A stretch of 64,000 nucleotides of DNA from Somniosus microcephalus (Eukaryota), in the NCBI GenBank assembly GCA_052327205.1, contig CM126226.1, positions 19,282,001 through 19,346,000 on the forward strand. Direction: 5' to 3'. Below the pieces are notes generated by a model. It saw nothing but the letters and a program-made list of their open reading frames with translations. It had not been told where the DNA came from and did not search any database. Shown one piece after another: positions 8,888-60,499 of this stretch. Every line of letters begins with the position of its first letter. Position 1 is the first letter of the stretch. Position numbers and translations under genes: made by a program.

Positions 8888-9425
8888 AACATATAAGAAC
8901 ATAAGAAATAGGAGCAGGAGTAGACCAATCGGCCCCTCGAGCCTGCTCCGCCATTCAATAAGATCATGGCTGATCTGATCCTAACTGCCAATCCACTATC
9001 ACAGAACCATCTCCTGCATCTAACAGAATTAGACACACGAAATAGGAGCAGGATCAGGCTACACGGCCCCTGGGCCCGCTCCGCTACCCACAAGGCCATG
9101 ACCGATCCGAACCTAGACACATGTCCAAATTCCTGCCCGCTCCCCGTAACCCTTAATTCCCTTTACTTCTAGGAAACTGTCTATTTCTGTTTTAAATTTA
9201 TGTAATGATGTAGCTTCTACAGCTTTTTGGGGCAGCATATTCCATGGACCTACCACCCTCTGAGTGAAGTAGTTCCTCCTCATCTCAGTTTTGAAAGAGC
9301 AGCCCCTTATTCTAAGACTATGCCCCCTAGTTCTAGTTTCACCCATCATCGGGAACATCCTCCCCGCATCCACCCGATCCAACCCCTTCACAATCTTATA
9401 TGTTTCAATAAGATCGCCTCTCATA
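8888..9425 (-). mobile_element. CR1 LINE 3' end
   Basis: RGDLIETYKIVKGLDRV...TRGHSLRI...FTQRVV peptide; CR1 3' UTR and short-repeat tail. Confidence 0.88.
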
Positions 9426-16526: not shown

Positions 16527-17255
16527 GGGCTAAAAATTGCGGTTGGAGACGTACCTCCGGAGTATGCCTCTGACCCGCAAAAGAATTACACACCTACCTG
16601 ATGGCGGCGAGGCTGCGGAAACTTGCGGTCTGGCGCTGTGAGGTGGAGGGCGGCGTAATGGCCCACGGATCCCAGGGACGGAGGCGGTAGCCACGTGGGT
16701 CTGGCCCTCCAATCACAAAGCAGACTTTGATTTTAATCATTTCCGAAGGGAATCCCATAATGGGATGCAATGGAATTCCGAAATCTGATATAATTACAAT
16801 TTACAGAATTGGAATTTAATTCGTAATTAGCTTCATTCCACCAACCTCACTAAAAATTTAACTTTTTGATAATTTTCAATATCATTAAAACTCTAATCCA
16901 GGCCAATATTTGCAGAAACTCATTTGATACAGCGTACGTGTATAATTTGCGATTGAAACATTTTCTATCATGGATACCCCTTACGCTGATGCAAACAAGC
17001 TTTGCATCACCCGTAACATGTCCGTGCTCAATTGCTGGCCAGTCAGTGGGCAAATACCCCAACTCTGGGGCAGCAATTGCTTTCTCGTGGGCAGTGCAGA
17101 TGGCCTGTCAATGCATACGCTGACAGACCGCAAGTTCCAGATTTCCGCACGCATGCGGAAATCCCGAACTTGCGGTGGATTTCAAAGGCAAAATCCGAGC
17201 CTATATTTTACGCTTAGAAGAACACTGTTACCAATTACAGTTATGTAATTTTCTC
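16527..17255. mobile_element. Probable Harbinger-like non-autonomous DNA element with a degraded right end
   Basis: Left end gggctaaaaattgcgg resembles the termini of the elements at 21494 and 45877. CpG-rich interior; acgcatgcg..aaa block shared with ~61020. No clear right TIR. Confidence 0.45.
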
Positions 17256-17832: not shown

Positions 17833-19035
17833 GTAGGTTGGTCTCTAATTATCATCAAGTTAAAATGGGACAACCTCAAACATCTGTGCAATCTATAAAA
17901 CATCAGATACTTGCAGCATGAGACTTCTGCTTACTTAAATGCAACTATTCAAGAGACGTCGATGTGCAAAGTATCTTTCAAAAGGGAGTACTTTTGAAAT
18001 ACAGGCCAACAGTGGCTAATATTGTTGGAGAAACTACACAGAATGTTGAAAGGACCTTCAGACAAAACTAATGTTTTCAATCTATACACTGCCTCGCGCT
18101 TCACCAGTCTTCAACTTGTGTAGAAATCACTGACGCAAATCTTCAACAGTAGTTGCACTCCAGAGCTGCAGGGTACAAATCTTAGACCTGAAAGACTGGA
18201 AGGATCAAGAGGGGCAAATAGGCCAACCATCAAAACAATTATGCATCAATTAAAAGCAGGATTCAGGAACAAAGTTCAATCCACAGTCTGTTTTAAAACT
18301 CCTCTCATGTAATTTTTTCCACTAAAAACACACATCATTCCAGATAATAATCCCAACAGTGCTTACATTTGCCACTGGCCCAATTTTGTTTTCACACCAA
18401 GCAGTATTAAACTGCCAGTACTGTGAATGGTTTAGGTACCCCTATAGCACAGAAATCAACAGGAAATTCACATTAGCTTGATGCATTTTGACCTGAGGGG
18501 TAGGAGATTTTTTCCTTTACTCTGCTGCTAAATGCTCAGAGCCACATTGGCCTACGTTAGCCAAGCCAGCGTCTTCAAATTCAGAAATGTAATATTCTTG
18601 CGTATTTGCAGATCTACATGTGGGGAAAAGGAAAGAAACACAGGCACAGAAATATACTCTTAAGATAGCACACTGAAGCAGAATCGCCAAGTGAATTTCT
18701 GTATGTCATCACTGAAGCAGCAATGCAGAAAATGCACACTGAAATCTGTAATAATGAAGAAAACATCTTGATGATAGATGGCCAATGATTATCTTAATTC
18801 AACTGGCAAAAGGGCCGTTTCAAACTGACCCATTTTGATGACTGTAGAGCATTCCTCCCTCTGACTAAATAGATGCTGTAGCCACCACAACTAGATACCT
18901 TTTTTTAAACACTACTTTAATAGTAATCACTTGTTCAGCAAGACAAGACATCTGGCATTATTCATTTTGAACTAAATAAATCAAATAAGGAATTCAGGAG
19001 AAACTTCATTAGCATCACAAATCCCTTCTAATTTC

Positions 19036-20268
19036 AACAAACATCCACTACAAGCCCACTGACTCCCACAGCTACCTGGACTACACTTCCTCCTACCCTG
19101 CTTCCTGTAAGGACTCTATTCCATTCTCCCAGTTTCTCCGTCTCCGCCGCGTCTGTTCTGACGATGCCACCTTCCATACCAGTGCTTCCGACATGTCTTC
19201 CTTTTTCCTCAACCGAGGATTCCCCTCTACTGCGGTTGACACGGCCCTTGACCGTGTCCATTCGATTTTGCGCACTTCTGCTCTCACCCCTTCCCCTTCC
19301 TCCCAGAACCACGATAGGGTTCCCGTTGTCCTCACCTTTCACCCCACCAGCCTCCACATTCAACGGATCATCCTCTGCCATTTCCGCCACCTCCAACATG
19401 ATCCCACCACCAAACGCATCTTCCCCTTGCCTCCCCTTTCAGCATTCCGAAGGGACCACTCCCTCCACGACACCCCCGGTCCACTCCGATCACCCCCAAC
19501 AGCCCTTCCCCTTTGCCCGGCACCTTCCCGTGCAAGCGCAGGAGATGCAACACATGCACTTTTACCTCCTCCCTTCCCACTGTCCAGGGCCCCAAACACC
19601 CCTTCCAGGTGAAACAGCGATTTACTTGTACTTCTTGCAATTTAATATACTGTATTCGCTGCTCACGATGCGGTCTCCTCTACATTGGGGAGACCAAACA
19701 CAGATTGGGCGACCGCTTTGCGGAACACCTCCGTTCAGTCCGTAAAGGTGACCCTGAGCTTCCGGTCGCCTGTCACTTTAATTCACCGCTTCACTCCTAC
19801 TCTGATCTCTCTGTCCTTGGCCTATTACATAGTTCCAATGAAGCTCAAAGTAAGCTCGAGGAACAGTACCTCACCTTTCGATTAGGCACTTTACAGCCTT
19901 CTGGACTCATCGAGTTCAACAATTTCAAACTATAACCCCATCCCCCGTTTTTCATGCTGTATGATTTTGCCATTCCCATTTGCAACATTTTATCTTTCCT
20001 GCCTCTTACATAAGCACAGTATGTTCCTTCAATTCCTCCCCCCACCCATCCCCCCCCCCATCCCCCCATTCCCCCCCCCCCCCCCGCCGTCTCTGCACCT
20101 GCTTAATATCTGTTACATCTCCAGCTTTTTCCAGTTCTGATGAAGGGTCGCAGACCTGAAATGTTAACTCTGTTTCTCTCTCCACAGATGCTGCCTGGCC
20201 TGCTGAGTGTTTCCAGCGTTTTCTGTTGTTATTTCAGATTTCCAGCATCTGCAGTATTTTGCTATTGT
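19036..20268 (+). mobile_element. Penelope-like element, 3' part (RT C-terminus, GIY-YIG endonuclease, terminal repeat)
   Basis: CKRRRCNTC linker and NLIYCIRCSRCGLLYIGETKHRLGDRFAEH (GIY-YIG); tail with a hammerhead-like core. Confidence 0.92.
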
Positions 20269-20320
20269 CTCTTTTAATTTATCCTGATACAATAGTAAAT
20301 ATTAAATATAAAATTATATA

Positions 20321-22898: not shown

Positions 22899-23216
22899 AT
22901 TGTCTTCACCGTGTAGAAATATTAAAAAACGTTGATGGAATGAAAACTCACTTTATATTGTACATCAAGTTAAATGCCCTACAATTATGCTTTAGACCTG
23001 CAATTTAAATTCCTTATTATATCCTCCTGTGAGCCACATTACACCATTTTTGAGTGACGATATCACATTAGCTCCTCATAGTTTTCTATCAGTATAATTT
23101 TAGCACCACTTTAACTTGTATTTGCAAAGATTACAGTATATATATGGTATAGAGGACATAATAGTGTTCTAATTTAGTCTAGCTGCTGAAATGACATCAA
23201 ATTCACTTAAATTTAC

Positions 23217-23967
23217 GATAGCAAAATACTGCGGATGCTGGAAATCCGAAATAACAACAGAAAACGCGAGAAAAACTCAGCAGGCCAGGCAACATCCGTA
23301 AAGAGAAACAGAGTCAACGTTTCAGGTCGAAACCCTTCTTCAGAACTGAAAAAAGGCAGGAAATGAAACAGATTAAAAGGTAGGTTGGGGGCTGGGAAAT
23401 GGGGGAGGGGATGAAGAAGAGACATTAAGAGATATTCAAGGGGAGACGAGATGGTAATAGGACAGGTAAAGAGACAAAGGATGGCTCTAGATGAAGTGTG
23501 AAATGCGCTGGCAGAGTGAGAGACAGCTGCCGTGTGGGAGAGAGAAAAAGGAAAAGGCACAAACCAAAAGTGTGGATAAAAAATATAAAAATATGATAGG
23601 GGCCGAGGTTATGATCTGAAATTGTTGTACTCGAGAGAGTCCGGAAGGCTGTAAAGTGCCTAATCGGGTGCACAATGGGGTGCTGTTCCTCGAGTTTATG
23701 CTGAGCTTCCGTGGAACAATGCAAGAGGCTGCGGACAGTGAGGTCTGAGTGGGAATGGAGCGGTGAATTGAAATGACAGGCGGCCGGAAGCTCGGGGTCA
23801 CCCTTACGGACTGAACGGAGGCGTTCCGCAAAGCGGTCACCCAATCTGCGTTTGGTCTCCCCAATGTAGAGGAGACCACATCGTGAGCAGCGAATACAGT
23901 ATACTAGATTGCAAGAAGTACAAGTAAATCGCTGTTTCACCTGGAAGGGGTGTTTGGGGCCCTGGAC
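23217..23967 (-). mobile_element. Penelope-like element, 3' fragment
   Basis: NLVYCIRCSRCGLLYIGETKRRLGDRFAE on the minus strand, with the same tail as the 19036 copy. Confidence 0.92.
23312..23347 (-). ncRNA. Minimal hammerhead ribozyme motif in the Penelope terminal repeat
   Basis: Minus strand reads AGUU-CUGAAGA-A-GGGU(UUCG)ACCU-GAAA-CGUU-GACU: conserved core boxes, stem II with UUCG loop, palindromic loopless stem III. Minimal hammerheads are an established feature of Penelope-like elements. Confidence 0.65.
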
Positions 23968-25745: not shown

Positions 25746-28700
25746 GATAATTGAACATGTCAAGGTTACTATTCCGCTGCTATGAAAAAGCCACAATATT
25801 GAACTTTCATCAAACTCATGCCTGCCCTAGGAGTGATTCTGGCTCAGTTTTTCTTTTCAGTCATCGGTACTCATTATGCAAAGATCTTGATGCCTTATTG
25901 CTGCAGGAAAATAATAAGAATTAGAACTACTGCCATTTTGGGGGATGCAGATTATGTATTTCTTATTTCTTCAGTCCACTAACTGATTTTTATTTAAAAA
26001 TATACGTTATTGCTCTAAATGAGTAACTGCTTCTTGCTTTGTGGTAGGAGGCACTTCATAAAGAGGGGTTGTAAAAAGGGGAAAATGTTTACGGCAGAAG
26101 ATGAACCAGTCTGCATCTAGTGGCTGGCTAAATGAGGTTCTGTGGAGATGCATGGGAGTAAATGACTTGGCTGTGCTCTCTTTTGGGGGAAATCGTGTAT
26201 GATGTAGCAGTCTGGGGCAGGAGAGAAGCGACTTGAAGGATATAAATAAAAAATCAATACTAAACATTTGTCAACTAATGGCGAGTGGCACTAGTGATTG
26301 ACAGGCAGTAAATGTTAGGAGACAGGATGTTGCGTGCAACTAATCAGCACTGGGGGAAATGGAAAGAACACTAGCATTTTGTCAGATGGAATGTTCTGTT
26401 CAGTCATAAAATTCCTAGAACGTTTGGAAAATGCTAATGTTTTTCATGACTTGTTAACAAGTAGCCAATCAAAAAGATTTTAAAGTTCAATTTAAAAGCT
26501 GCAACAGAAACTGCCACAATCTGGTATTAATTTCAGAAAATGCACGCATGGGGTGGGGGCGGGAAATCACAAACAAGTTTCTACATATTCAAAGACTCCA
26601 GTTAGAACATGGTTGATATTAACAGGACTTTAAAAAAAAAAAATGACTAAATGCCTTGTTTGCTTCAAACGCATTGATTTTTATTTTTTCATTCATGGAG
26701 ATAGTTTGTGAATTGGAGATGTGATAAGAAATGTACTTCTAGACGTTCCAACAGTGTTCAAGAAACTAAACATTAACTGCCAAGATCACATCAGGGGAAG
26801 ATTTACTTTCAGTAGCACTCCTCCCATATGGGACTAATTCTCAGAGCAGTTTACATTGAGGAGGGAAAACGGTGGACGATGAGCATGAGAGAAAATTAGC
26901 AAAAGCTTGGGGGGGGGGGGGGGGGGGAGAATGAGTAAAGGCACAGGCCAAGAGAAGAGTAATGAGGAAGACAGGTAGGTGTAGAGAACAGAGGTGCAGT
27001 GACTGAGAGTGGCCACCTATGGTTGATAACCAGGAGTAACCTGGTGTCAGAGGAGCAGATGGCTGGAGATCACTGAGGTACGGTAGGGTAAAGGCATGAA
27101 GGGATACAAAAGTGACAACGAGGATCCTGAAGTAAATTCGCTGGGGCAATGAGAAACAGGGCAGCTTAGTAAGGGTGGGGACTGCAGGTCTTTGTGAAGA
27201 TGAAGAATGCAGGCATTCTAAATGAGTTGCAGTTTGCAGAGGGAGGAGGCTGGGTAAGTAAGAGAGAAGTTGAGCACCTAGGATTTGAAATGCATTAACT
27301 TGGGCTTTGGAGGTGGCGGGAGAGATGCAGACAGACAATATTGAGAGATGAAGAAAGGTTTTTGGTTATGGTACACATGCAAGAGGCGTAAGGAAAATGT
27401 ACTGTTATGAAATCAATGAAAACGTTTTGTAACAGTACTTTTTCCTTCCCCCTCTTGCATCTATACCATACAGCCAGAGATAAGTTACACTGTAAACTAC
27501 CTCCCCAAGTATACTCTGTCTTCATGAAAAGAACTATTGAGTTGCCCATGCAGTGGGGGAGGGGGTGTGTGTGTCTGGAGGATTATTAGTTACGTTTTGA
27601 AAGGGTAGAATGAAAGCTCGGTGTTCAGGGCATCAAATACTCAGCTAGATCCATATGTCAGTTGTTGAATTGCTACTTGGGTATCCTAGGTTCTAAAAGG
27701 CTGGCTTCAATTTAATGTTTATATGTTACTTTAAACTAGTTTATCTTAATTTTATCTAAACATAATGTAAAATATTCCACAAAATATAAAATCAAATCTA
27801 CTTAAAAGTGATTACAAATGAAGACTGCAGCATACATCTGCAGCACGAGTCACGTATTGTGGCTAAACGCAATGAAATGTAGATCAGTTGCACAAGCAGA
27901 GATAAGTAAAACAATATGTTGGGTTCATATATTTTAATACAGTTTAAAGTAATCATCTTATGGCACATTGCATCCTTTTTGTGCAGACATCGCTGACTTA
28001 CATTTTGTGGGGGTACTTTAAAAAAAAATCTTTATTCTAACACTAAATTTAGATCAAATGCAATTATCGTTTAAAAACTCATTGAAACCCAGCCACGATA
28101 AATGTGAACATTTGTGAGTATTATACTATTGCAAGTTTTCCTCAACTGTACCAATACGTTTGATTAATATTTTTAACTCACCACAGCATGCATCTGTAGG
28201 AAAAGGGAAAATGATGCACAAACTTGGTGTTGTCTCCGCCAGACCCCCACCCCAACCAACCCTCCCCCCCCCCACCCACCGCCCCGGTAATTTGACATCA
28301 GGAAAAGTTGACAGGACTGGGAGGTCCTTTGCTGGCCAAACCTCAAACAAAAGGCATCCTTCTCCCCAAAAAAGTTCCAGCCCACATTCCTGTCAGCACC
28401 TGAGCTTAATTGATGGATGGGGAGGAACTTGCCATGTGTGCAGTGAGTGGGAGGGGCATCGACTACACATGCATTAGATATTTAAGATGCTGCGTCTAAG
28501 CTGTTCTCAAGACTGCTTACATTTTTCTGAAAAGGACACTGCAGGAATACTTCAAGTTAACTGCAGCAGGCTTCAACGTTCACTGGATAAAGTGTGCACA
28601 AGAGGAACATTTTTAACAACATTCTTGTAACTATTCTGCACTTTTTAAGAAAAACTTTAAAGCACACCGACAAGGTAGCTGACAGAACACTAGTGCCTCC

Positions 28701-28785: not shown

Positions 28786-29167
28786 ATGCCAGTCAAGATT
28801 TTCCTCTGGCTTTTGTCGTTCATTTTTCTGCTTTGCAATTTTCCTTCGGGTTCCAGCCAGGTTCAGAAAGCACCTCGGAGAAGGGGGGCTGCAGGAGGAG
28901 TGAACATTATGAAGCTCATCACCTGCTGTGATGATCTGAAAGAGCTGAAGATCCAGGTGGCCAACCTGACCAGCATTCTTACTGAGCTCAGTAGGAAACA
29001 GGAGACCGACTGGATAAACGTTGTCATGCAGATGATGGAAGTGGAAAACGGCTATCGGCAGATTGAATCTCGCATTACAGAAGCCGAAGGAAAATACTCT
29101 GAAGTGAACAATCGGATAGACATTATTCAGCTTCAGGCAGCCCAAACAGTTACGCAGACATCTGCAG
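28786..29167 (+). CDS. ANGPTL7: Angiopoietin-like 7, coding exon 1 (signal peptide and coiled coil)
   Basis: ATG at 28786 with a hydrophobic signal peptide. CCDDLKELKIQVANL...IDIIQLQAAQTVTQTSA matches recalled human CCEEVKELKAQVANL...IDIMQLQAAQTVTQTSA. Donor GCA G|gtaagg, phase 1. Confidence 0.95.
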
Positions 29168-31126
29168 GTAAGGGCAGACTATTCTGGGAAACAAGGGATG
29201 GGAATGGAGATGTTATTAAATGTATTTATTGCTCATAAGGTTAGGCATAGTATGAATAAACACAGGCAAATATGAGCCTGTAAATTTAAGTTTTAAAAGG
29301 TGATTTGCCATTTTCAGAACTATTAAAAGCTACTCTGCTTGATAAGTTACTTTTATTTCTTTATAGTTAAAATGAAGCAAAAAGTTAAAACTTCACATTA
29401 GTATTTCAGTATTATGATTAAGCAAGTCATAGCAGCTCACATTGATTAAATATGAACAACAACTTTATTTATATAGCGCCTTTAACGTAGTAAAATGTCC
29501 TAATGCGTTTCATGGGAGCGTTATCAAACAAAATTTGACAAATGAAAGTCACATTCCCACTTAATAAAACACAGCTGTATAATGTGGTCTGGGCATTCCC
29601 AATTTTCTTGAGCGAGATCCCATTCAAACTCATAAATAACTTGGAAAGCCTCAATTATGTTGACTACAGTTGAAAAAGAATAAATCAGGCAGCAACATGG
29701 AACAGAAAATCACGATCGCCCTTTCCCAAAAGAATGCAGGCGCCTCTGAACCCACTCACCCCAATTAAGTTTGACAAAGCCTCTAAAATCCATTTGTTGT
29801 TACAGTAATATAAGGCTACAAACCAGTTTTTACTTTTAATTACTGTACGTTATTAACTGATTCCATTTAACTACAGTATGTATTTTTCCTACAAGAGCCT
29901 ACTAAACTGGAGCAGAGTTTAATGTTTTTTTCCCGACTTTTATAATTAGTTAAATGAACCAACAATAAATTAACTTTCATAGGTTAGTGTATAAAACAAA
30001 ATCAACTAGTTCCTTAGAACACTTTGTTTATGACAGCACAATATATTTAACTGTACCAGTACATGAAGTGGAACTACTCAAGGTAACTGTAGAACTGATA
30101 CAGTAGGTTGATTTAAGTTGATTTTGCCTCTGAGCGCCATTAATTATGTTCAAACTACATTCTGATTCAGCACAAAAACACCTGCACCAATCTGAACAGA
30201 CTGCAACACATCAGAATTCCTCAAAAAATTCTCTCCACACAATGTACTTAAATGTTGCAGTAATCATTTTTATTTCTAAACTACAAGATCTTTCTGACCA
30301 ACTACAATAGTCATGCTACAAGATAGAAGAAAATACCGGCAGTTTAGTTTGTGTTCCCTTTCTTTTAGAAGGTAGAACTGCATTGTTGCAGCAGAAACAA
30401 TCCCCTCACATGAAATTGTACTTAAAAAAAAAACTATGCCATTTCCATCATATTTTAATGTAGTGACTGAATTTATTTGCAATCTAGATTTAAAACTAGA
30501 CTGCAAGCCTTGGTACTCTTGAAAGGGGGAGAGGGGAAGAGATAATGCTGGGATTATAGAATGCGTTAAACAATATAAATATTGTAATTTGTGAACCAGG
30601 ATTGTACTGCAGGTAATGGTCGGGATCTCTCTTTTCTGTTCACTCACTAGGGGTGTACCAAAGCAGAATATACTCTAAAGCTTTTAGCTTTGACGGATTA
30701 TTGAGAAACTACAAACTATTGTGAATTTGAAAACTATCTAGTAGCAGAGGTGCTCTCTCTACCTCCGGTCTCAAAGTACAAATCCGTACCTACCAGCTCC
30801 TGCCCTCTATAGCTCCAGATTTAACAGATTACTTGCAGCTCACACTTGCATCCTGTAGCTGGAGCCCACGGACAGAACACACACAAATTCCATTCAAAGC
30901 CCTGAGTCTGTGTTTCACCTGATTCTATCAGACACCTAATCAAATCAGACAAGAAACGTCAGCAGTCTTAAATTCTCACCTGCTGGTGAAGCAGACCACA
31001 CGGCATACCTTAGTAACTCAGTCATAATCTGAAAACAATTCACGAGAGGCTCCCATTTTGCACTTTACCTAAACTCAACAGCAGTCAGAAAGTGTCTGGA
31101 AATCAGAGTGAGGTGCTCTTAGTATT

Positions 31127-31281
31127 TGAAACAACAACAGAAAATGCTGGAAACACTCAGCAGGTCAGGCAGCATCGTGGAGAGAGAGAAACAGAGTTAA
31201 CGTTTCAGGTCGATGACCTGCTGAGTGTTTCCAGCATTTTCTGTTGTTGTTTCAGAATTCCTGCATCCGCAGTATTTTGCT
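31127..31281. mobile_element. Fold-back remnant of Penelope termini with a perfect 41-bp inverted repeat
   Basis: 31127-31167 is the exact reverse complement of 31214-31254. The sequence matches the Penelope tails at ~20200-20260 and ~50370-50440. Confidence 0.85.
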
Positions 31282-34200
31282 AATGCTCTTAGTATTTATT
31301 GGATTTTTGATCCGGTTTTGGGAAGGCAAATCCAGTGCACTGCTCTCCCCCTTTTACATTCAACACTGGGAGTTTCTGTCGATATGCTGGGCTCTGCTGT
31401 TAAATATGGAGACCCAGAATGCAAGAATGGTGCCCATGCATTTAGTACACTGAAACTGGTGTCCTTACCCCAACAGCACATTCATAGATCCACATTTTCA
31501 TGAATCTACAATGCTAAGTTCCAGGTTGTTTACACTGTGGAGTGCTGCCATGGATGAAGACCCAGTCATCTGCAGTGACTCCAATACAGTAGTACACAAG
31601 TGGCAGCTTGGGTCAATGGTAGTACTCTTGCCTCAGTCAGAAAGCTGTAGATCCAAACCCAACTCCAAGGCTAGGCTGACATCAGTGCAGTACTGAGCGA
31701 CTGCTGCATTGTCAGGGGTGTCACCTTTCAAGTGAGATGTTAAAGCGAGGTCCCGTCTGCCAGTTCAGGCGGATGCAAAACATCACATGGCACTTTTTCC
31801 AAAGTTTGTCCAGTGTCCTGGCCAACATTGCTTCTTCAACCAATATCACCAAAATGGATTAAATGGTCATTCTTTGCATGTGTTTTTTTTTCGTTTATGG
31901 GATGTGGACGCCGCTGGCAAGGCCAGCATTTATTGCCCATCCCTAATTGTCCTTGAAAAGGTGCTGGTGGTACCTTGCTGTACGCAGATTGGCTGCTGCG
32001 TTTCCCTAAATAACAGTGACTGAACTTCAAAGTAACTAAGAAAAGTAACAAAATCAAATCCATTCTTAAAATCATTTCACCAATCGAATACACAATCCTA
32101 TTTTGTCGAAGTTACTTATCCACTTGGTTAAGTTTGCTTAAGTTTTTTTTTAAGTGACATAAATAATTGGATAAGACAATATTGCTCTACACCCGTGTCA
32201 TTTTTAACCAGCACCCCTCTGCCATCAAAATGTATTGAAAACAGACATCTATCTTGGATTTTTTTCTGGTTGCTCTGATATTTAAAGAAGTGAGATATCA
32301 CCATTAGACCACAGTATGCTACACTGAGCAGAATCTGGCTGAAATTTGGAAATCAGTTTGCCAGTTTCGTAAATATACAATATCTCTTGCCCGAAGTAAA
32401 GATGCCCCAAGGGAGGTAAGTAAACCTACTAGGCATTATGTTATACCAAGGAAATGAAGTGTTAAATAGCTATTCCAGTTCTTGTAAACCTATCCGTCAG
32501 AAGTGACCTTTTAACATCCGAGACATTCAAGTATTCCAGCGGCATCAGGGTGAAGCACTAATGCTGACTTTAAACAGTTGACAGGTCACACAGTGAGTTA
32601 TAATGTAATGGTGTAGAGATATGTTTAACAGACCAAGAATGCTACTAGATTTTAAAAAGGTGAAGGCATTTAAAATAGTGTAACCATTTTCATTTATACA
32701 TGAAATTCTACAAATTGTAACATCCCATCTGATGGACCGCACTCTGGGGCTGTGGATGGCAGAAGCCTGCAGTTACAAAATAATGCCATTAATTAAAGTT
32801 TGATAAAAGAAAACTATTTGGCTGAAGACAGGGTCAGGCTCAGCGGTGATACGCTCTGTGATTGAAGAGCCTGCCAACAGACCTTACCGTCTCGGCTCAC
32901 TCATGAAGAATGGTCACTTGGTTGAGGCGGGGAAGGGTGCCCATCATCTGTGGATTCATAATCAGCAGGAGTCTACGGCTTTAGCAGAAGATGAGAAAAA
33001 CAGGAGGCAAGAAAAAATGCACTAAAAGACAATTATTTAAGGATAGGAAGAGCTGATTTACGGCATTGTCAGGTCACTCTCATAATGACCAAGGCACACT
33101 AACTTTTAGAGGCAGCAGGATTCTGAATTGCTGTCACACAGTTTCAGTATTCAAGGTAGGTTTACATGAAAACAAATACATCGCCTGGTCAATATGCACA
33201 TGAATAAAAAGTGTTGTATGTTATTTGATTCACACATTTCGAACTCTACTTATAATTATAAAGGAAATTATTTATGCAGATGCCACACTGAAGAAAATGT
33301 GGATATTTGGAAAGGCAGAAAGACCCATCTATCCACAAGAGCTATACACCGTTTTCATTAAGATGCAATCAAGTTGTCTAAATGCATCACTGCAACAGTT
33401 GCTAAACTATATGACTCCAGACTGACTATATTATCTAATAATCCATGCAGGCTGCCCCTACAAAAGTCCAACTGCCGGATTACACTTATCAAGTTCTCAG
33501 AGGATCTTTCATTACCTTACATTGAAAACGCTAAAACTTTTTTAAAAAACAAGCAAACTAGACCTTTATTTTCCAAGATAAAACCCAAGACATTTACAAA
33601 GACGGCATAAAATGTAGAGTACAAATTCCACACCCTCACTGAAATACATCAGAGTCAAATTAGAACCGATTCTGCATTTTCTGGGGACCATAGGAATGTG
33701 TGCAGAGTACTGTATACCATAGAGTTACTGAGCAGGCAGAAGAACGTCAGTTATATACACACATGGAGCACAATTTAGTTGCCACCTAACTATCACCATC
33801 TCCTAGAAGACAGTCACTTCAGCTCCTTTTAACCTACATATATCATGAAAATATAAGCGGCTGCTTGAAGTTAAAGCAAAAAGGGCAGATTTTGATTATG
33901 CTGCGATCGGTGCAAATCAAAATCCATCTCCGTGGCACTGACAACAGAAACCAATACATCAATGGGATAAAAATACAATTATCTCCAATGCTTTGCCACA
34001 CTCAGTCAAGCTGAAAATCCCTCCTAAAAAGTTTCAATGACTTGAAATGATTTTTAATTTTCTTTGCTGAAGGCACTGTCCTTTACTAGGATATGGCTCC
34101 ACTTTCAGTGGTAAACCTTCAGTACCTTGCCCAAGCATCCATACTTCATGCGAGAGCCCTGACAATTAATATCGGTAGCTTAGTTGACCATGGAAGGCAT

Positions 34201-34933
34201 CACAATTGAGCCTGGTCCTGTCCTCAACCAGCATCCCCCCATGGAAGCTTTGCCAGCAGGATAGTGATCAGAAGCTGGAAATTTAATTGATGTTTGTCCT
34301 CCCTAGCCCAGGAGTCCTGGTGTCAACTGTAGCACACCAATTGGTGCCGCAGTTCAAATCAGTTAACTCAGCACAGGCAGTAATCGTAAAAAAAAACCTA
34401 GTTTGTTATAAATAGTATTACGTACCTTTAGGACCAAAATCAGGTTATTATTTTGGAAATTCAAACATTTAAAAGCCTACCTTGCTGCATTTTTTCTCTT
34501 TCTGGGATATTAACAGATGTTCAACCTTTCTTTTGGCTTAACTGGGCCTGTATATATGGAACAAATTGCCACTTGCATCAACAAATTCAAGAGCGAACTA
34601 GATGGATATTTTCCCAAGAAATGGATCAAGGGGTGTGAGAGACAGAGTAGTGTGTAATACTTTTTAAGCTTTGGGACTCAAGATGGTCCACAAATGTTTT
34701 TGGCGCATCCTGTACATTCTGACGAAAGGGGAAGGGGAGGAGGGTTAAACAAGAAAAAGTAAAAACAAAGCTTAGACTAGGATAAATGGGCAGCTTAATT
34801 CAGAAAGGTCGAAACAAAACACAAGTCTGCAATTTCAGGTTAACAATGCTAACTTACTGGGTAGAGAATTTAGATGGGAACAATATGATGCAACAGTCTA
34901 AACAGAATATTTCAAAGTGACTAGTATATATGG

Positions 34934-36043
34934 TGCATTTGCTAAGATTCATGAATTCCCACAGCTAATAAATCAATTAGAAAGATAAAAAAAACACCAT
35001 GATAATTCTTAACTCGCTTCAATGTTTTCTTACTGGTGTGGAGTATGGTAGCTATTTAGTCTGGTTTCATAGACAGTGGATGAGAAGAGAATGAATGAAA
35101 GTTTCCTGCTTGAGTGAGTACCTTGCATGAATATAGATTTTGATCACTGTTCTAACTTGGAAAAGGACCTCACAAAAATTGATTAAAAAAAAAAAAGATA
35201 TTAGTAAAAGACACTCTTCATTGTTGCTCATATGCAGCTGCAGTGCGGTAATGGTTTGATTTAATACTCTGGCATTCTGGAGCAGTAATGCAGTCTTCAA
35301 TCTTTTGTTTGCAGATGCTACGTACGACTGTACATCGCTGTACCAGAAGAATTATCGAATATCTGGTGTGTACAAGCTACCTGCAGATGATTTCCTGGGA
35401 ACTCCAGAACTAGAGGTGATGCTTTTTAAAATAAACTTCCTTTATTTTTATTCATATTATCTTTTGGATTTACTTCAGCGGAGTTTCAAACTGGTGGACT
35501 GCACATACAGAGCCATTTGTTGAACACTGTCGTTGTGATGACCGCAATACACAGGACACTCGTTACTTATCATTTGTGAATTTTTTTACTCCATTGTGAG
35601 AATTGTTCAGTGAATACTAAAATATCGCCTCATTCTTCATTTTACTGTGATCTTTTCAAACAGTGAATTTGGCCTAGGATTTTACTGGAGTATGGAATAT
35701 ACCTTCCTATTGCTGAAGAATCCCCAAGTTTTAAATTCAACCATTACTGCAGCTGCATATGAGCAACAACGAAGAGAGTGGCCTGTTCTTTAGTAATTCA
35801 TATTTTTTCCACTTTGTGAGGTCCTTTTCCAAGTTAGAACAGAGCCTGTATCAGTGATCAAAATCTATGCCAAGCAGGAAACTTTCATTCATTCTTTTCT
35901 CTGCCACTGTCTGTGAAACCAGACCAAATAGCTACTGTACTCTGCACCAGGGAGAAAGCATTGAAGCGAGTTAAGAATGACCATGATGGTTATTAAACCT
36001 TTCTAATTGATTTATAACTGTAGGAATCCATGAAATGAATGCA
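34934..36043. repeat. Long imperfect inverted repeat (arms ~34934-35287 and ~35709-36043) enclosing ANGPTL7 exon 2
   Basis: 34998-35112 aligns without gaps to the reverse complement of 35871-35985 at 101/115 identity. Further matching blocks (tgttctaacttggaaaaggacctcacaaa; ttgttgctcatatgcagctgcagt; aaatcaattagaaag) extend both arms. Confidence 0.92.
35315..35415 (+). CDS. ANGPTL7: Angiopoietin-like 7, exon 2 (start of fibrinogen-related domain)
   Basis: ttttgtttgcag|AT GCT ... CTA GAG|gtgatg; (D)ATYDCTSLYQKNYRISGVYKLPADDFLGTPELE; 101 nt. Confidence 0.96.
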
Positions 36044-36593
36044 TTTTTAATGAACGAAAAATAAAAAATGCTGGAAATATACAGTCAGAATCTGTAAAGA
36101 GACCAGACAAGTTAACGTTTGAGGTTAAGGTTACACTTGAAACATTTCCTTGTCGACTTTCTCTACAATTGCTGACAGACTTGCCGAGTTTCTCCAGCAT
36201 TTTGTGTTTTTGTTTCTATTTTCTAGCATTTACAGTTGTTTTCAATTTAAATTTTTGATGAAAATGTGTTCTGATGGAGCTAAAGAATTAATTGAGAAAT
36301 GGAGGGTGAAAACGGTTAAATAACACAAGCTACTTTATTCCTCAACTTCCAAGATACAATTGTAGTACATGTGTATGCAATAGGATTTACCCAACAGAAA
36401 ATTCAAATCAAAATTCTCCATGCTAGATCAAAATGATTTGAGGCTGCAAGTACACTGGCCCTAACTTAGACTAGTAAATGAGGCTTTGAATCTGCTCAGT
36501 TTCTCATTATAATCGAATGAAAGTCCAACTAAATATTTCAGTGTTCAATAATATTCTCCATGTCTAATTAAATAATCATTTGCACTGCCTTAG

Positions 36594-36788
36594 GTGTACT
36601 GCGACATGAAAACTGGAGGTGGTGGCTGGACTGTTATACAACGTCGCAAAGCTGGCCTAACCTCTTTCAATCGTGACTGGAAACAGTACAAGCGAGGGTT
36701 TGGCAACATCCGTGGAGACTTCTGGTTGGGAAATGAACACATTTTTCGATTAACTAGGCAGCCAAGTATACTCAGGATAGACATGGAG
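36594..36788 (+). CDS. ANGPTL7: Angiopoietin-like 7, exon 3
   Basis: ccttag|GTG TAC TGC ... ATG GAG|gtaact; VYCDMKTGGGGWTVIQRR...FWLGNEHIFRLTRQPSILRIDME carries fibrinogen C-terminal domain motifs; 195 nt. Confidence 0.97.
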
Positions 36789-37025
36789 GTAACTCATTAG
36801 AATTTTCATTTATATATTTTTCCAAAATTATGACTAATTAATTTTATTGCAGATGAAATATTCAATAGACAGAATTGGAAACAGTAGGAAGTTTAATATT
36901 TAAATTTCTGCCATAAAAAGATTTAGCGGTGCGCAATAAATGTGAATTAACATTCTACAGCATGCTCGTACCAATTTATATTGGTGTAAGTAAACTGTTT
37001 AATGACTTGACCTATATAACTACAG

Positions 37026-37224
37026 GACTGGGAAGGACGTACTTGTTATGCAGAATACAACTACTTTTCGATAAGCAATGAATTGAATAGCTACAGATTA
37101 ATAATTGGAAATTACAACGGGACAGCTGGACGGGACTCACTCAGGTACCACAACAACACTGCCTTCAGCACAAAGGACAAAGACAACGACAAGTGTGTGG
37201 ACGACTGCGTACAATTCCGCAAAG
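37026..37224 (+). CDS. ANGPTL7: Angiopoietin-like 7, exon 4
   Basis: ctacag|GAC TGG GAA ... CGC AAA G|gtaagt; DWEGRTCYAEY...YHNNTAFSTKDKDNDKCVDDCVQFRK; 199 nt. Confidence 0.97.
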
Positions 37225-37719
37225 GTAAGTGCCGATCAGTAAATAAAAGAAAACAAGATGTTTTCAGGCACTGGATGGGTCATGGCATTTTCAGCTAGCA
37301 TTCATTTTTTGTAATGCTGTACTAATGTCCTATTAAAGTTACAGAAGGCAAACAAGAAGTTTCCACAAAGTCTGCAGGCAATTCAATACACTGGGAAAAT
37401 GTGACCAAGAATAATACAGCCTTCCAATACCAATATTTAATAAGAATTGTGACAATATACTGCAGAATTTAGCTATATTTGATAGGTTCTATGAATACAT
37501 TACAAAGAAAAAATTATGTTACATAAAAATGCACAGGACTGGACACAATCACTGTGAAGCACCTGGCTGGTCCCAAAGTTTAAAAATACCATACCCCTCT
37601 CTCTCACTTTCTCTCTTGAATTTACCAGCACTATCCACCTCTACTGCCTCTCCAATCTTTAACTCCCAAGAAAGGGTATTCACAATATATTCAATAACTC
37701 ACTGTCCTTTTGACTGCAG

Positions 37720-37889
37720 GTGGCTACTGGTACAACTGCTGCACAGATTCCAATCTGAATGGAGTTTATTATCGTCAAGGGCAGCACGCCCAAAACTCTG
37801 ATGGCATCACATGGTACGGCTGGCATGGTTCAAGTTACTCGCTGAAACAAGTCGAAATGAAGATTCGTCCACAAAGCTTCAGGCCTTGA
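37720..37889 (+). CDS. ANGPTL7: Angiopoietin-like 7, exon 5 (terminal, includes stop)
   Basis: tgactgcag|GT GGC TAC TGG; (G)GYWYNCCTDSNLNGVYY...DGITWYGWHGSSYSLKQVEMKIRPQSFRP*, TGA at 37887-37889. The five exons sum to 1047 nt (348 aa plus stop) with no frameshift. Confidence 0.97.
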
Positions 37890-46580: not shown

Positions 46581-47148
46581 ATTGTTTCAGCCTGTTCTTG
46601 CCCAATGGAACGGATTGCTTCCTATCTCAACTCTCTTTTTTTCCCTCCCCTTGTCCAGTCTCTTCCACCTACTCTTCCGACTCCCTCCGCCACTTTAACA
46701 GTTTCTAGTTTCCTGGACCCAACCGCCTCCTTTTCACTATGGACGTCCAATCCCTCTACACCTCCATCCCCCACCAGGACAGCCTGAGGGCGCTCCGCTT
46801 CTTCCTTGAACAGAGGCCCAACCAGTCCCCATCCACCACCACCCTCCTCCGCCTGGCTGAACTTGTTCTTACATTGAACAACTGCTTTGACTCCACTTAC
46901 TTCCTCCAAATTAAAGGTGTTGCTATGTGAACCCACATGGGCCCTAGCTATGCCTGCCATTTTGTAGGCTATGTGGAACATTCTTTGTTCCAATCCTGCT
47001 CAGGTCCCCTCCCTCACCTTTTTCTGGTACATTGATGACTGTATTGGTGCCGTTTCCTGATCTCGTCCCGAACTAGAAAATTTCATTCACTTTGTTTCCA
47101 ATTTCCACCCTTCCCTCACCTTCACATGGCCCATCTCCGACTCTTCCA

Positions 47149-49190
47149 TAGAAACATAGAAGATAGGAGCAGGAGTAGGCCATTTGGCCCCTCGAGCCTG
47201 CTCCACCATTCAATGCGATCATGGCTGATCATCCAAATTCAGTACCCTGTCCCTGCTTTCTCCCCATATCCCTTGATCCCTTTAGCCTTAAGAAATATAT
47301 CCAACTCCTTCTTGAATATATTTAATGAATTGGCCTCTACTGCCTTCTGTGGTAGAGAATTCCACAGGTTCACCACTCTCTGGGTGAAGAAATTCCTCCT
47401 CATCTCTGTCCTAAATAGCTTACCCCTTATCCTTAGACTGTGACCCCTGGTTCTGGACTCCCCGACCATCGGGAACATCCTTCCTGCATCTAGTCTGTCT
47501 AGTCTTGTTAGAATTTTATAAGTTTCAATGAGATCCCCTCTCATTCTTCTAAACTCCAGCGAGTACAAGCCCAATCGACCCAATCTCTCCTCATACATCA
47601 TTCCTGCCATCCCAGGTATCAGCCTGGTGAATCTTCACTGCACTCCTTCCATGGCAAGAACATCCTTCCTCAGATAAGGTGACCAGAACTGCACACAATA
47701 CTCAAGGTGTGGTCTCACCAAGACCCTGTACAACTGCAGCAAGACATCCTTGTTCCTGTACTCAAACCCTCTCGCTACGAAGGCCAACATACCATTTGCC
47801 TTCTTAACCGCCTGCTGCACCTGCATGCTTACCTTCAGCGACTGGTGCACAAGGACGCCCAGGTCTCGTTGCACTTCCCCTTCTCCCAATCTACTGCCTT
47901 TCAGATAATAATCTGCCTTCTTGTTTTTGACACCAAAGTGGATAACCTCTCATTTATCCACGTTATATTGCATCTGCCATGCTTCTGCCCAATTACCCAA
48001 CCTGTCCAAATCATACTGGAGTTTCTCAGCATCATCCTCACAGCACACACGCCCACCCAGCTTTGTGTCGTCTGCAAACTTGGAGATATTACATCTAGTT
48101 CCCTCGTCCAGATCATTAATACATATTGTGAATAGCTGGGGTCCAAGGACCGATCCCTGCGGTACCCCACTAGTCACTGCCTGCCACTCGGAAAAAGAGC
48201 CGTTTATTCCAACTCTTTGCTTCCTGTCTGCCAACCAGTTCTCTATCCAAGTCAATACCTTACCCCCAATCCCATGTGCCTTAACTTTACACGCTAATCT
48301 CTTATGCGGGACCTTATCGAAAGCCTTCTGAAAGTCCAAATACACCACATCCACTGGTTCTCCCTTATCTATTTTACTAGTTACATCATCAAAAAATTCC
48401 AGTAGATTAGTCAAGCACGATTTACCTTATGTAAATCCATGTTGACTTTGTCCGATCTGGTCACTGTTTTCCAAGTGCTCTGCTTTTACATCTTTTATAA
48501 TGGACTCTAGCATTTTCCCCACTACCGATGTCAGGCTTACCAGTCTGTAATTCCCCGTTTTCTCTCTACCACCTTTTTTGAATGGCGGGGTTACATTAGC
48601 TACCCGCCAATCCATGGGTACTGTTCCAGAGTCTATCGAATTTTGGAAGATGACCAGCAATGCATCTACTATTTCTAGGGCCACTTCCTTAAGTACCCTA
48701 GGATGTAGATTATCAGGCCCTGGGGATTTATCGGCCTTCAATCCCGTCAATTTCACTAACACCATTTCCCGACAAATACTGATTTCTATCAGTTCCTCCC
48801 TTTCATTAGACCCTATGTTCCCCGGCATCTCTGGGAGGTTATTTGTGTCCTCCTTTGTGAAGACAGAACCAAAGTCTGCCATTTCTTTGTTCCCCATTAT
48901 AAATTCCCCTGATTCTGACTGCAAGGGACCTACGCTTGACTTTACCAATTTTTTTCTCTTCACATATCTATAAAAGCTTTTACAGTCAGTTTTTATGTTC
49001 CTTGCAAGCTTACTTTCATACTCTATTTTCCCCTCTTAATTAATCCCTTTGTCTTCTTTTGTCGAATCCTAAACTGCTCCCAATCCTCAGGTTTGCTGCT
49101 TTTTCTGGCCAATTTATATGTCCTCTCCTTGGATCTTATGCTCGCCCTAATTTCCCTTGTTAGCCACGGTTGAGTCACCTTTGTTTTATT
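47149..49190 (-). mobile_element. Young CR1 LINE (~2 kb, 5'-truncated) inserted into Penelope
   Basis: KSPGPD, NYRLVSLTSVVGK, YLDFQKAFDKVPH, SGVPQGSVLGP and FADD motifs; possible short TTCC duplication; near-identical to 3491-4803. Confidence 0.93.
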
Positions 49191-50517
49191 TTCCCTTCCC
49201 TTTTTCGACTTCTCGGTCTCCATTTCTGGGGATAGGCTATCGACAAACATCCACTATAAGCCCACTGACTCCCACAGTTACCTGGACTACACTTCCTCCC
49301 ATCCCGCTTCCTGCAAGGACTCTATTCCATTCTCCCAGTTTCTCCATCTCTGCCACATCTGTCCTGACGATGCCACCTTCCATACTAGTGCTTTGATAGG
49401 TCTTTTTTCCTCAACCAAGGATTCCCCTTTACCGTGGTTGACATGGCCCTCGACCGTGTCCGTTCCATTCCCCGCACTTCTGCTCTCACCCCTTGCCCTC
49501 CCTCCCTCCCAGAACCAAGATAGGGTTCCCCTTGTCCTCACCTTTCACCCCACCAGCCTCCACATTCAACGGATCATCCTCCGCCACCTCCAGCATGATC
49601 CCACCACCAAACACATCTTCCCTTCTCCTCCCCTTTCAGCATTACGAAGGGACCGCTCCCTCTGCAACACCCTGGTCCACTCCTCAATCACCCCCAACAG
49701 CCCCACCCCACGGTACCTTCCCATGCAAGCGCAGGAGATGCAACACCTGCCCTTTTACCTCCTCCCTTCCCAATGTCCAGGGCCCCAAACACTCCTTGCA
49801 GGTGAAACAGCGATTTACTTGTACTTCTTGGAAATTGGTATACTGAATTCGCTGCTCACGATGCAGTCTCAACACTGGGGAGACCAAACACAGATTGGGT
49901 GACCGCTTTGCGGAACACCTCTGTTCAGTCCGTAAGCATGACCCGAGCTTCCGGTTGCCTGCCATATTAATTCTCCGCTCCACTCCCATTCTGACCTCTG
50001 TCCTCGGCCTCTTACACTGTTCCAATGAAGCTCAACGTAAGCTCGAGGGACAGCACCTCATCTTTCGATTAGGCACTTTACAGCCTTCTGGACTCAACAT
50101 CGAGTTCAACAATTTCAGACTGTAACCTCTGCCCCTATTTTTTCAGGCGGCAGCTGTGGTTGCAAATGGGATGGCAGAATCATTTAATCTCTGCTGCCTT
50201 CCGCCCCATCACAGACCGTCCCTTTTGTTCTTTCCTCTCCACCCCCCCCCCCACCCCTTTCCCTGCCTCTGCACCTGGTTAAAATCTATTACATCGCTAA
50301 CATTTTCCAGTTCTGACAAAGGATCACAGACCTGAAACGTTAACTCTGTTTCTCTCTCCACGGATGCTGCCTGACCAGATTGAGTGTTTCCAGCATTTTC
50401 TGTTGTTCTTTCAGATTTCCAGCATCTGCAGTATTTTGCTATTGTATGATGTACTGGCTACCTTGTACTGCAGCATTATGCAACTCAAGGCGAGGTTTCA
50501 ATGTGGATAATTATGGG

Positions 50518-58547: not shown

Positions 58548-60313
58548 ATCAGGACATACCATTTAGGTCCATGAGAATAGGTAGGTGCTGAAATCAGTAC
58601 AACATCCAGAACAAATAGAGAAAACTAGAATTGGGTGGAACCGATTTTAAAGGACACTGGTCAATGGTAAGTTTTAGTTTTTCCTTCTCCAAATTCTGCA
58701 TGAGTAGCAGCACATTTACACAGAAATTGAAAATACAATTTTTTTTTTTTTTTTTTTAAGGCTTCTCTTTTTATTAGTGCTGCATGTTTATAAATGTAAC
58801 CCAGTCTTGATTCTTTATATCACAGGCCCCATTATTCAAATTCCACCCCCCCCCCCCCCCAAATCTCATGCTGGGTTACTGCACCCAAGTTCCAACAGCC
58901 CTCCAATACCTCACCCACATGGCTATTCTTCATATGTGAACCTAGATAGCAGTTTCAGCAGATTATACAACTGTAAAAGGCATTACAGTACAGTGAGATC
59001 CTGTCCTCTCTCAAATGTGCTTTCCAGGTGATGTTGCTGAATAGCTATTAATGGGAACACTGACTACCTTTCCCCCGGTCCCTTTTCTTAATGCAAGCTA
59101 ATTATAGTCAAATTAAGGGCGACTTTTATACTTGCACAAACTGAGCTGTAAATGGAATATAAAGTGCAAAAAACTAGAGGCAACAGAATGGTGAATATGT
59201 AACAGAAATATACACCTTGATTATCACGTGCATGCATCTTATCTTCGACACACATGACTACGCAAAGATTGCAAAGTTATTAAATGTACCAAACATGGGA
59301 AATGTTAGCTGCTGTTTATGAAGCAACTTGCATCAACCATTTCCATTAATCTATAAAATGTTAAGAAAGTAATTTTAGGGAAACTTTAGGAGTTGAGTTT
59401 CATTTTGAAAGCTGCAAAGGGCCCATTAGCCCCAAACTTATTGTCGATCCCAAGCTACCTCCCATCTCTGAAAAATCAGAAATAAGCTTCACTGGGACAA
59501 AGCTTTTCATCCTCACACTAAATGGATCATTGAATCAATAGTCTCTTTAGGCTTAACAAATAAAAAAATTTTAAAAATTGAAGCAAAACCCCAGGTTAAA
59601 TATATATGCAACTATCTCCTGCCCTTGTACGTACCAAGATTTATTCAGATCTCTAAACTTGAGAAAATTCTTCCAAAATATTCAAACCCAAACAAAAGTA
59701 TGCAACACATTTCAAACAATGGAAGAGTTATATTTTGAAACATGTTCAGAATTGGGAATTTTTCCAAATACAAGTATGCACTCCTCAAGGGAGTAGGATA
59801 GGTTAGAAATCTGGCTAATATAAATGTAGCATAAAGACAATGTGTGGTTTACTATCAACTTTTTACATTCACGGGCTGCTTTGTTCAATATCTGTGTTGC
59901 AGTGAATACATTTTACTAATGTTCATCTTTCAATTTAGTGTTGTAGAGATTTTCTTTATAAATTTTAAAAACAGAGCACTGCTCAGGCAATGCCATCAGC
60001 TGCTTCTTAGGCGGGAGGTATACTGTGCTCAATACAAACTCATCAGTACAAGATGGCCTCCTGAAATGGGAAGGAAACTGGGACTTTTCAGCTTTAATAC
60101 ACTTGATAGTGTTCCGAATTATACTGCCACTTTTGCATCAATAAGCACTTCAAACCACTTGCACAGTTGCAAAAATGGCAAAATAGCTGCACCCTTAGTT
60201 TTTTTTTTTTTAATTGCAAGCTCAATAATTACAAAGTGCAATCCTTAAATTGTACCAGATCATCTATCGCTTCAAACTGTGCGACATGGTGATTTGATTT
60301 TTGTGGAGACCAG

Positions 60314-60499
60314 GGGGTGAAATTGGACATGGGTGGGATGCAAAACAGGCGGTATCGCATCGGTCTCCCCTTATGCACCCTGCCCAATAATCAGCTCCGT
60401 TGACTTCAACAGAGCCGGCTATCGGGCGTGTCGTATAACGGGCGGCGAAAACGAGTCCGCCTGTTTTGTGTCCACGCCAGTGTCTAATTTCGCTCCCCC
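60314..60499. mobile_element. Short palindromic Harbinger-like MITE
   Basis: Imperfect TIR ggggtgaaattggaca / tgtctaatttcgctcccc with CAG on both flanks; internal hairpin ctccgttgacttcaacagag; ~100 nt from the MTOR donor site. Confidence 0.65.

What the first reader, a model, noticed from the sequence alone, without database searches (positions are those of the whole stretch)
34934..36043. ~350-bp inverted repeat places ANGPTL7 exon 2 in the loop of a potential pre-mRNA hairpin
Seen: arms ~34934-35287 and ~35709-36043 are reverse-complementary (core 101/115 identical, no gaps) and bracket the 101-nt exon 2 in a ~420-nt loop. The left arm ends ~27 nt before the exon, in the expected branch-point zone. 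The arms match none of the repeats I recognise elsewhere in the window. Established: flanking complementary intronic sequences promote exon skipping, back-splicing and ADAR editing. Computed by hand: skipping exon 2 shifts the frame, adds 27 residues and stops at TGA 36674-36676, giving an NMD target or a coiled-coil-only product without the fibrinogen domain. Inference: an RNA-structure switch controlling ANGPTL7 output, inside an intron also transcribed antisense by MTOR. This is the best candidate for an undescribed system in the window.
Basis: partly seen in the sequence, partly recalled or inferred. Interest (0 to 1): 0.75.

Follow-up and report, generated by a model that had tools for sequence, protein, structure and literature searches.

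The report
Old inverted intron copy, shark ANGPTL7
About 340 bases of one intron of a shark's ANGPTL7 gene have a single backwards twin in the next intron, so the unspliced RNA is predicted to fold around exon 2, but the twin is likely an old DNA-copying scar that is decaying like ordinary intron DNA, and any effect on splicing is untested.

Summary
The inverted repeat is real: arms 34948-35287 and 35708-36034, 269 of 319 aligned bases alike, around the 101-nt ANGPTL7 exon 2, inside an MTOR intron on the other strand. The arms are not a transposon pair: five genome searches find only these two copies in 6.4 Gb. It is a single-locus inverted duplication, older than the split from a relative about 9% diverged that holds both arms. 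Nothing shows selection for pairing: 4 of 6 lineage-specific left-arm changes destroy a match, none creates one, G.U wobbles have no strand bias, and the arm region diverges as fast as the flank. A second two-copy pair turned up in a 1.8-Mb sample, and repeat-derived nearby pairs occur in 39 of 180 stretches. The two RNA runs laid had no exon 2 or 3 reads, so skipping, circles and editing are untested; some skipping is plausible, as the mouse Tbxt insRCS2 allele has this anatomy. The scan noted similar pairs before (PPP3CA in this genome; TBC1D9, PCM1, UNC5 elsewhere; unchecked notes). Verdict: ordinary member of a known kind; a regulatory switch is unsupported.

The parts
28786..29167 (+). 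ANGPTL7 coding exon 1 (signal peptide and coiled-coil part), 382 nt
   Evidence: ORF and GT donor; homologues named angiopoietin-related protein 7
34948..35287 (+). left arm, at the 3' end of intron 1 (frays to about 34934)
   Evidence: present in organisms D and G
35286..35289 (+). candidate branch point TAAT at the inner end of the left arm, 26 nt before the end of the intron
   Evidence: read from sequence against the recalled UnAy consensus; not tested
35315..35415 (+). exon 2, 101 nt, in the 420-nt loop; its donor matches 5 of 9 consensus positions against 7-8 for exons 1, 3 and 4
35708..36034 (-). right arm, in intron 2, reverse complement of the left arm (frays to about 36044)
   Evidence: whole in organism G, only 35708-35795 seen in organism D
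36043..36244 (+). decayed palindromic repeat like the end repeat of a Penelope-like element, abutting the right arm
   Evidence: 55 matches from 250 candidates; aligns to the repeat at 20090-20290 that follows a GIY-YIG reading frame
36594..36788 (+). exon 3; holds the TGA at 36674-36676 reached if exon 2 is skipped
28786..37889 (-). the whole ANGPTL7 coding span lies within MTOR, which runs on the - strand
   Evidence: mTOR_dom and FRB exons bracket the window

Best explanation
The two arms are the only two copies found in the genome and likely arose once, by a local template switch or break repair that wrote about 340 bases of nearby intron backwards into the neighbouring intron, and they have likely drifted as unselected intron DNA since. 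Shown: two copies only, both arms in a relative about 9% diverged, arms 16% apart, changes that break matches. Predicted: a long duplex on either strand (ANGPTL7 or MTOR pre-mRNA). Inferred: the left arm, which carries the branch-point region, is the original; exon 2 is normally included; any skipped RNA would be a minor, frameshifted by-product removed by nonsense-mediated decay, not a regulated output.
For: Two matches and two candidates for either arm in 6.45 Gb; three shared 23-26-nt words with 1-2 mismatches each hit only the two arms; a third copy as old as the arms would escape all three with p about 0.06; controls with neighbouring repeats gave 55 and 95 matches. Organism G holds both arms: 77 other letters in 807 and 78 in 947. 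Of 6 changes shared by D and G against the window in the left arm, 4 restore a match to the right arm (identities 284 to 288), so the window's lineage lost those matches; none created one. Rate 6/340 in the arm vs 2/366 in intron outside it, Fisher p 0.16. G-vs-window divergence 20/215 upstream of the arm vs 57/592 over arm and exon. G.U wobbles: 10 on + vs 12 on -. Perfect runs not clustered: p 0.38 and 0.06, or 0.65 and 0.32 with adjacent mismatches merged. Same kind of pair at L180 with exactly two genome matches. All 27 compared relatives' proteins contain exon 2 (26-32 of 33 residues alike); none of 14 short homologues shows the skip tail.
Against: No outgroup without the duplication was seen, so origin and direction are inferred. 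Only 6 polarised changes, from 40 of 272 rows shown, all on the left arm; right-arm changes were not listed. The duplex is very stable (266 expected arm-arm pairs), close to the exon, and exon 2 has the weakest donor; a 228/297 Alu pair is enough to cause skipping in TBXT (PMC10901737), so 'little effect on splicing' is not shown. A long duplex can act without exact sequence conservation. Protein databases would hide an NMD isoform. The genome search missed a 72% partner over 123 nt at L102, so much older copies could be missed. Sample-unique pairs are uncommon (2 in 1.8 Mb), so one sitting this tightly round an exon is unusual.
Confidence: 0.7

Rival explanations
1. Same origin, but the hairpin causes appreciable constitutive skipping or circularisation of exon 2 that lowers ANGPTL7 output and is simply tolerated, not regulated.
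For: Stable predicted duplex; weak exon 2 donor; non-repeat reverse-complement copies of 220-297 bp cause exon 6 skipping in mouse Tbxt (PMC10901737, section 8 and passages); deleting one Alu reduced skipping in 7 of 8 reporters, by about 1 to over 40% PSI (PMC13019944); human ANGPTL7 loss-of-function variants exist and are linked to protection from glaucoma (PMC10950037, start of abstract).
Against: Predicted unpairing of branch point 0.24 vs 0.29, acceptor 0.17 vs 0.34 and donor 0.02 vs 0.06 with and without the right arm; the right arm is transcribed 292 nt after the donor, leaving time for exon definition (inference); predicted stability separates skippable from constitutive exons only weakly (d = -0.12, PMC13019027 passage); the reading frame is intact and exons 1-4 are 282/292 identical to the closest compared relative.
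Confidence: 0.17
2. A selected RNA-structure switch (skipping coupled to NMD, circRNA or ADAR) that tunes ANGPTL7.
For: Both arms kept in the window's lineage and organism G; tight placement round a frame-shifting exon; the left arm reaches the branch-point region.
Against: 4 of 6 polarised changes break matches, none is compensated; no slower rate than flanks; no strand bias of wobbles; no Rfam match at E up to 1; in organism D no contig covers 35796-36117 and the two flanking contigs run on with 39 and 28 unaligned letters, which would fit loss of most of the right arm, though the tool warns that a hole proves nothing.
Confidence: 0.07
3. The right arm was written in the same event as the Penelope-like repeat beside it, the reverse transcriptase jumping to nearby DNA or to MTOR pre-mRNA (an alternative origin, compatible with neutrality).
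For: The repeat starts within about 10 nt of the arm's end; the arm does not continue beyond it (score 29, null 95th percentile 36); Penelope elements form inverted junctions, and template jumps are proposed for them (PMC3846280 passages); chance for this family alone about 0.003 (post hoc).
Against: 0 of 34 other loci of this repeat have a sample-unique inverted pair within 1.5 kb; the L102 and L180 pairs have no copy of it at their arms; some repeat lies within 20 nt of an end of either arm with p about 0.15.
Confidence: 0.1
4. Two independent insertions of a rare, old transposon in opposite orientations.
For: 45 of 46 nearby inverted pairs of 150 nt or more in the sample are repeat-derived; the search can miss old copies.
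Against: No third copy in five genome searches; a profile of both arms finds nothing better than E 0.34 in 919,776 sampled bases; no cover by repeats in the 1.8-Mb all-against-all beyond 3 bases at the edge.
Confidence: 0.03

Closest known systems
Mouse Tbxt insRCS2 and insRCS alleles (PMC10901737; passages and section 8 read)
   Same: A 220-297-bp piece of one intron present in reverse complement in the neighbouring intron, around one exon, with no transposon sequence; insRCS2 arose unplanned at a CRISPR cut by copying from the next intron, the origin inferred here.
   Different: Those alleles are new and insRCS is 297/297 identical and shown to cause skipping; here the pair is natural, old, 84% alike, the exon is frame-shifting, and skipping is untested.
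Inverted Alu pairs that loop out exons (TBXT AluY-AluSx1; PMC13019944 section 4 read; PMC13019027 passages)
   Same: Arm length about 300 nt, about 77% identity, one exon in the loop; PMC13019944 also reports 4.69% of human exon-straddling inverted alignments as generally unique, non-Alu, non-LINE elements.
   Different: Arms are single-locus, not SINE copies; no transcript evidence.
Reverse complementary matches of C. elegans zip-2 (PMC8330042, abstract only)
   Same: Intronic complementary arms that can drive both skipping and back-splicing.
   Different: The zip-2 match is 13 nt, conserved across five species and shown by deletion; here the arms decay at the flank rate.
Template-switch mutations (PMC7954356, abstract and first part of introduction) and class 2 templated sequence insertions (PMC5110952, passages)
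   Same: A nearby or distant template copied into a new site, reverse-oriented copies giving inverted repeats.
   Different: Short-range switches are modelled within tens to hundreds of bases and class 2 insertions come from distant donors; junction marks here are too decayed to classify.

Membership tests
Exon-flanking complementary intron pairs (loop-out / back-splice elements) | Reverse-complementary arms in the two introns flanking an exon | tested here: met
Exon-flanking complementary intron pairs (loop-out / back-splice elements) | Predicted stable arm-to-arm duplex | tested here: met
   -476 kcal/mol, z -22, 266 expected arm-arm pairs
Exon-flanking complementary intron pairs (loop-out / back-splice elements) | Skipped or circular transcript, or clustered A-to-G edits, observed | tested here: inconclusive
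   zero depth on exon 2 and exon 3 bins in both RNA runs, 24% and 31% of each run read
Exon-flanking complementary intron pairs (loop-out / back-splice elements) | Effect lost when one arm is deleted | not testable with these tools
   needs a minigene or edited cells
Conserved regulatory RNA structure | Compensatory changes or slower evolution than flanks | tested here: not met
   4 of 6 changes break matches, 0 compensated; rates not lower; small sample, left arm only
Inverted SINE/transposon pair or transposon terminal repeats | Arms belong to a dispersed multi-copy family | tested here: not met
   controls
Locally templated inverted duplication (template switch / templated insertion) | One donor nearby, copy in reverse orientation, no other copies | tested here: met
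Locally templated inverted duplication (template switch / templated insertion) | Ancestral state with one copy and an empty site | not testable with these tools
   no relative's assembly is held; G has both arms
Locally templated inverted duplication (template switch / templated insertion) | Junction microhomology, no target-site duplication or poly(A) tail | tested here: inconclusive
   ends fray over 10-15 nt; looked at by eye only
Described RNA family (Rfam) | Match to a covariance model | tested here: not met
   0 matches at E up to 1 in 34500-36700

The most novel reading that the evidence does not exclude
A natural, transposon-free counterpart of the engineered Tbxt insRCS2 allele: an ancient inverted intron copy that loops out a frame-shifting exon and has set ANGPTL7 dose in the eye or skin of one shark clade through skipping coupled to decay, one of possibly thousands of such self-made hairpins that rewire splicing in slow-evolving shark genomes.
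Probability: 0.1. Interest if true: 0.6.

Novelty: new member of a known kind. Interest (0 to 1): 0.2.

Why it matters
As it most likely stands it matters little: one more local inverted duplication in a repeat-rich genome where long intronic duplexes are common. If skipping were shown, it would be a natural test of whether transposon-free inverted copies change gene dose over long times, in a gene whose human loss-of-function variants are linked to lower eye pressure (PMC10950037, start of abstract). The class itself, roughly 0.1-4 pairs per Mb here, could be catalogued to ask whether such pairs avoid frame-shifting exons.

Tried and rejected
RNA evidence: no RNA holder was listed for the stretch (no evidence either way). 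Two raw RNA runs of organism B were laid on 34600-36900; the 76 and 225 reads laid were all partial, mainly on A-rich stretches and the repeat at 36050-36240, none on exon 2 or 3, and no joint came from them. Exon 1 was outside the laid stretch, so an exon 1-3 junction could only have shown as loose ends at exon 3; none was listed (193 loose-end rows not shown). Extension of the repeat beyond the adjoining element or into the loop: scores below the shuffled 95th percentile. Truncated homologues: the 14 hits are exon 1 frames that run on into the intron; isoforms X2 of Heterodontus and Mobula differ at the N-terminus, those of Latimeria and Heteronotia lack the exon 3 part, none lacks exon 2. 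No look-alike stretch among the scan's other genomes. No per-year shark substitution rate was found in the passages of PMC10587355, so no absolute date is given. Not in print as far as searched: ANGPTL7 + shark gave 9 papers, 8 listed, none on this repeat by title or abstract start; none of the 10 listed of 461 for ANGPTL7/exon 2/skipping/circular RNA names ANGPTL7. No supplements were read.

Full report
Observation. Window self-BLAST gives 34948-35287 against 36034-35708, 76.9% over 347 columns, E 8.7e-65; 269 of 319 aligned columns are identical and the best ungapped 115-nt core is 101/115. The loop is 420 nt and holds exon 2 (35315-35415). The five-exon model gives a 348-residue protein; skipping exon 2 adds 27 residues and stops at 36674-36676, 311 nt before the last junction, which by the recalled 50-55-nt rule would be an NMD target. 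Homologue names and Pfam identify ANGPTL7 of a cartilaginous fish; mTOR_dom and FRB exons on the - strand bracket the window. The stretch folds at -476 kcal/mol, z -22 against 20 shuffles, and at -467 on the MTOR strand.

Copy number. Each arm finds only itself and its partner in 6.45 Gb (2 candidates). Three words shared by both arms, allowed 1-2 mismatches, each hit only the two arms; a third copy 8% from the ancestor would escape all three with p about 0.06. Controls show that the search reports repeats: the decayed element beside the right arm gave 55 matches from 250 candidates and a younger copy 95 from 1752. The limit is also clear: a 72% partner over 123 nt was missed. A two-arm profile found nothing better than E 0.34 in 919,776 sampled bases. 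The arms are therefore a single-locus duplication, not a transposon pair.

Relatives. Of 24 runs listed, four were laid on 34600-36900. Organism G carries both arms on two contigs (77 other letters in 807, 78 in 947). Organism D carries the left arm, exon 2 and the first 88 nt of the right arm (45 in 880, 14 in 278), then nothing until 36118; the flanking contigs have 39 and 28 letters left over, which would fit a loss, but the tool warns that holes prove nothing. The arms differ by 15.7% of aligned columns, more than the window differs from G, so survival in G is what a neutral clock predicts. Only 40 of 272 difference rows were shown; I infer from their order that all rows shared by D and G over G's first contig, and all G rows up to 34866, are among them. 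On that reading six changes in the left arm belong to the window's lineage: putting back the D/G letters raises identities to the right arm from 284 to 288, so four destroyed matches (one leaves a G.U pair), one lies in an unpaired insertion, one at a site already mismatched, and none made a match. Four or fewer of six hitting matched sites has p 0.23 under neutrality; 6/340 in the arm against 2/366 outside gives p 0.16; G differs at 20/215 upstream and 57/592 over arm plus exon. Wobble-type mismatches split 10 to 12 between strands and perfect runs are not clustered. The sample is small and right-arm changes were not listed, but nothing points to selection for pairing.

Background. In 180 stretches of 10 kb, pairs with arms of 150 nt or more and spacers up to 2 kb numbered 45 repeat-derived (in 39 stretches) and 1 sample-unique; at 100 nt or more, 61 and 2. 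The unique pair at L180 (274/286 nt, 75%, 1.8 kb apart) has exactly two genome matches, like ours. Two in 1.8 Mb gives 0.13-4.0 per Mb, one gives 0.01-3.1: uncommon locally, but probably hundreds to thousands in this genome (inference). Long intronic duplexes as such are routine here.

RNA. The two raw RNA runs (24% and 31% read) have no depth on the exon 2 or exon 3 bins and give no joints, so skipping, circles and editing are untested. Indirect signs are weak: all 27 compared proteins contain exon 2 and none of the short homologues carries the skip tail, but an NMD isoform would not be there. The right arm changes predicted unpairing of branch point (0.29 to 0.24), pyrimidine tract (0.54 to 0.50), acceptor (0.34 to 0.17) and donor (0.06 to 0.02) modestly. 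Against my reading: exon 2 has the weakest donor, 5 of 9, and in mouse Tbxt a reverse-complement intron copy causes skipping, as does an Alu pair only 228/297 alike (PMC10901737).

Mechanism. Most likely one reverse-oriented copying event at a stalled fork or break (four-point template switch, PMC7954356; templated insertion, PMC5110952; the unplanned insRCS2 allele) wrote the 3' part of intron 1 backwards into intron 2; direction is inferred from the left arm carrying the branch-point region. A Penelope-like end repeat abuts the right arm, but 0 of 34 other loci of that repeat have such a pair and adjacency to some repeat has p about 0.15, so a shared origin is a minor rival. Since then the arms appear to have drifted. 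I put neutral relic with little effect at 0.7, tolerated skipping at 0.17, a selected switch at 0.07 and a rare transposon pair at 0.03; the Penelope origin (0.1) overlaps with these.

Known kinds and novelty. It would work, if it works, like exon loop-out by inverted Alu pairs (PMC13019944, section 4; PMC13019027, passages) or nematode reverse complementary matches (PMC8330042, abstract). It meets the anatomical features, fails the multi-copy and covariation features, and the functional ones are untested. PMC13019944 already reports 4.69% of human exon-straddling inverted alignments as generally unique sequence. Searches found no paper on this repeat. Earlier notes of this scan describe like pairs at PPP3CA in this genome and at TBC1D9, PCM1 and UNC5 elsewhere; I did not check them and do not count them as support. 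Papers seen otherwise: PMC5237311, PMC10587355, PMC11167929 and PMC3846280 as passages; PMC10950037 and PMC7199928 as search listings; no supplements.

Verdict. Observation confirmed; interpretation partly supported; new member of a known kind; interest 0.2.

Noticed in passing
L180:6914-7187 and 9021-9306 (G000:C8, near 230.01 Mb): A second inverted pair, 75% alike, 1.8 kb apart, with exactly two matches in the genome; gene context not examined.
   Followed up: partly
L102:3053-3175 and 4166-4290 (G000:C25, near 35.0 Mb): Sample-unique inverted pair of about 125 nt, 72% alike, one arm squeezed between two unrelated repeats.
   Followed up: partly
window 19034-20268, 23215-23967, 49240-50445: Penelope-like copies with a GIY-YIG frame (19402-19932, E 1e-4) and end repeats; 19582-19945 and 23599-23967 form an 87% inverted pair 3.7 kb apart.
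   Followed up: no
window 31124-31300: Palindromic end-repeat element with a tail, seemingly flanked by a 13-14-nt direct repeat read by eye; 77 family copies in the 1.8-Mb sample.
   Followed up: partly
organism D, against window 35796-36117: No contig laid over most of the right arm; flanking contigs end with 39 and 28 unaligned letters. Possible loss of the arm, unproven.
   Followed up: no
proteins P0022, P0030: Annotated ANGPTL7 isoforms X2 of Latimeria and Heteronotia lack the exon 3 part in frame.
   Followed up: no
window 3494-4807 and 47147-48483: Two 1.3-kb copies, 94% alike, of a repeat with long reverse-strand reading frames that look LINE-like by eye.
   Followed up: no
window 27367-27470, 60313-60497, 17127-17176: Self-complementary (palindromic) stretches in the self-BLAST, not examined.
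   Followed up: no
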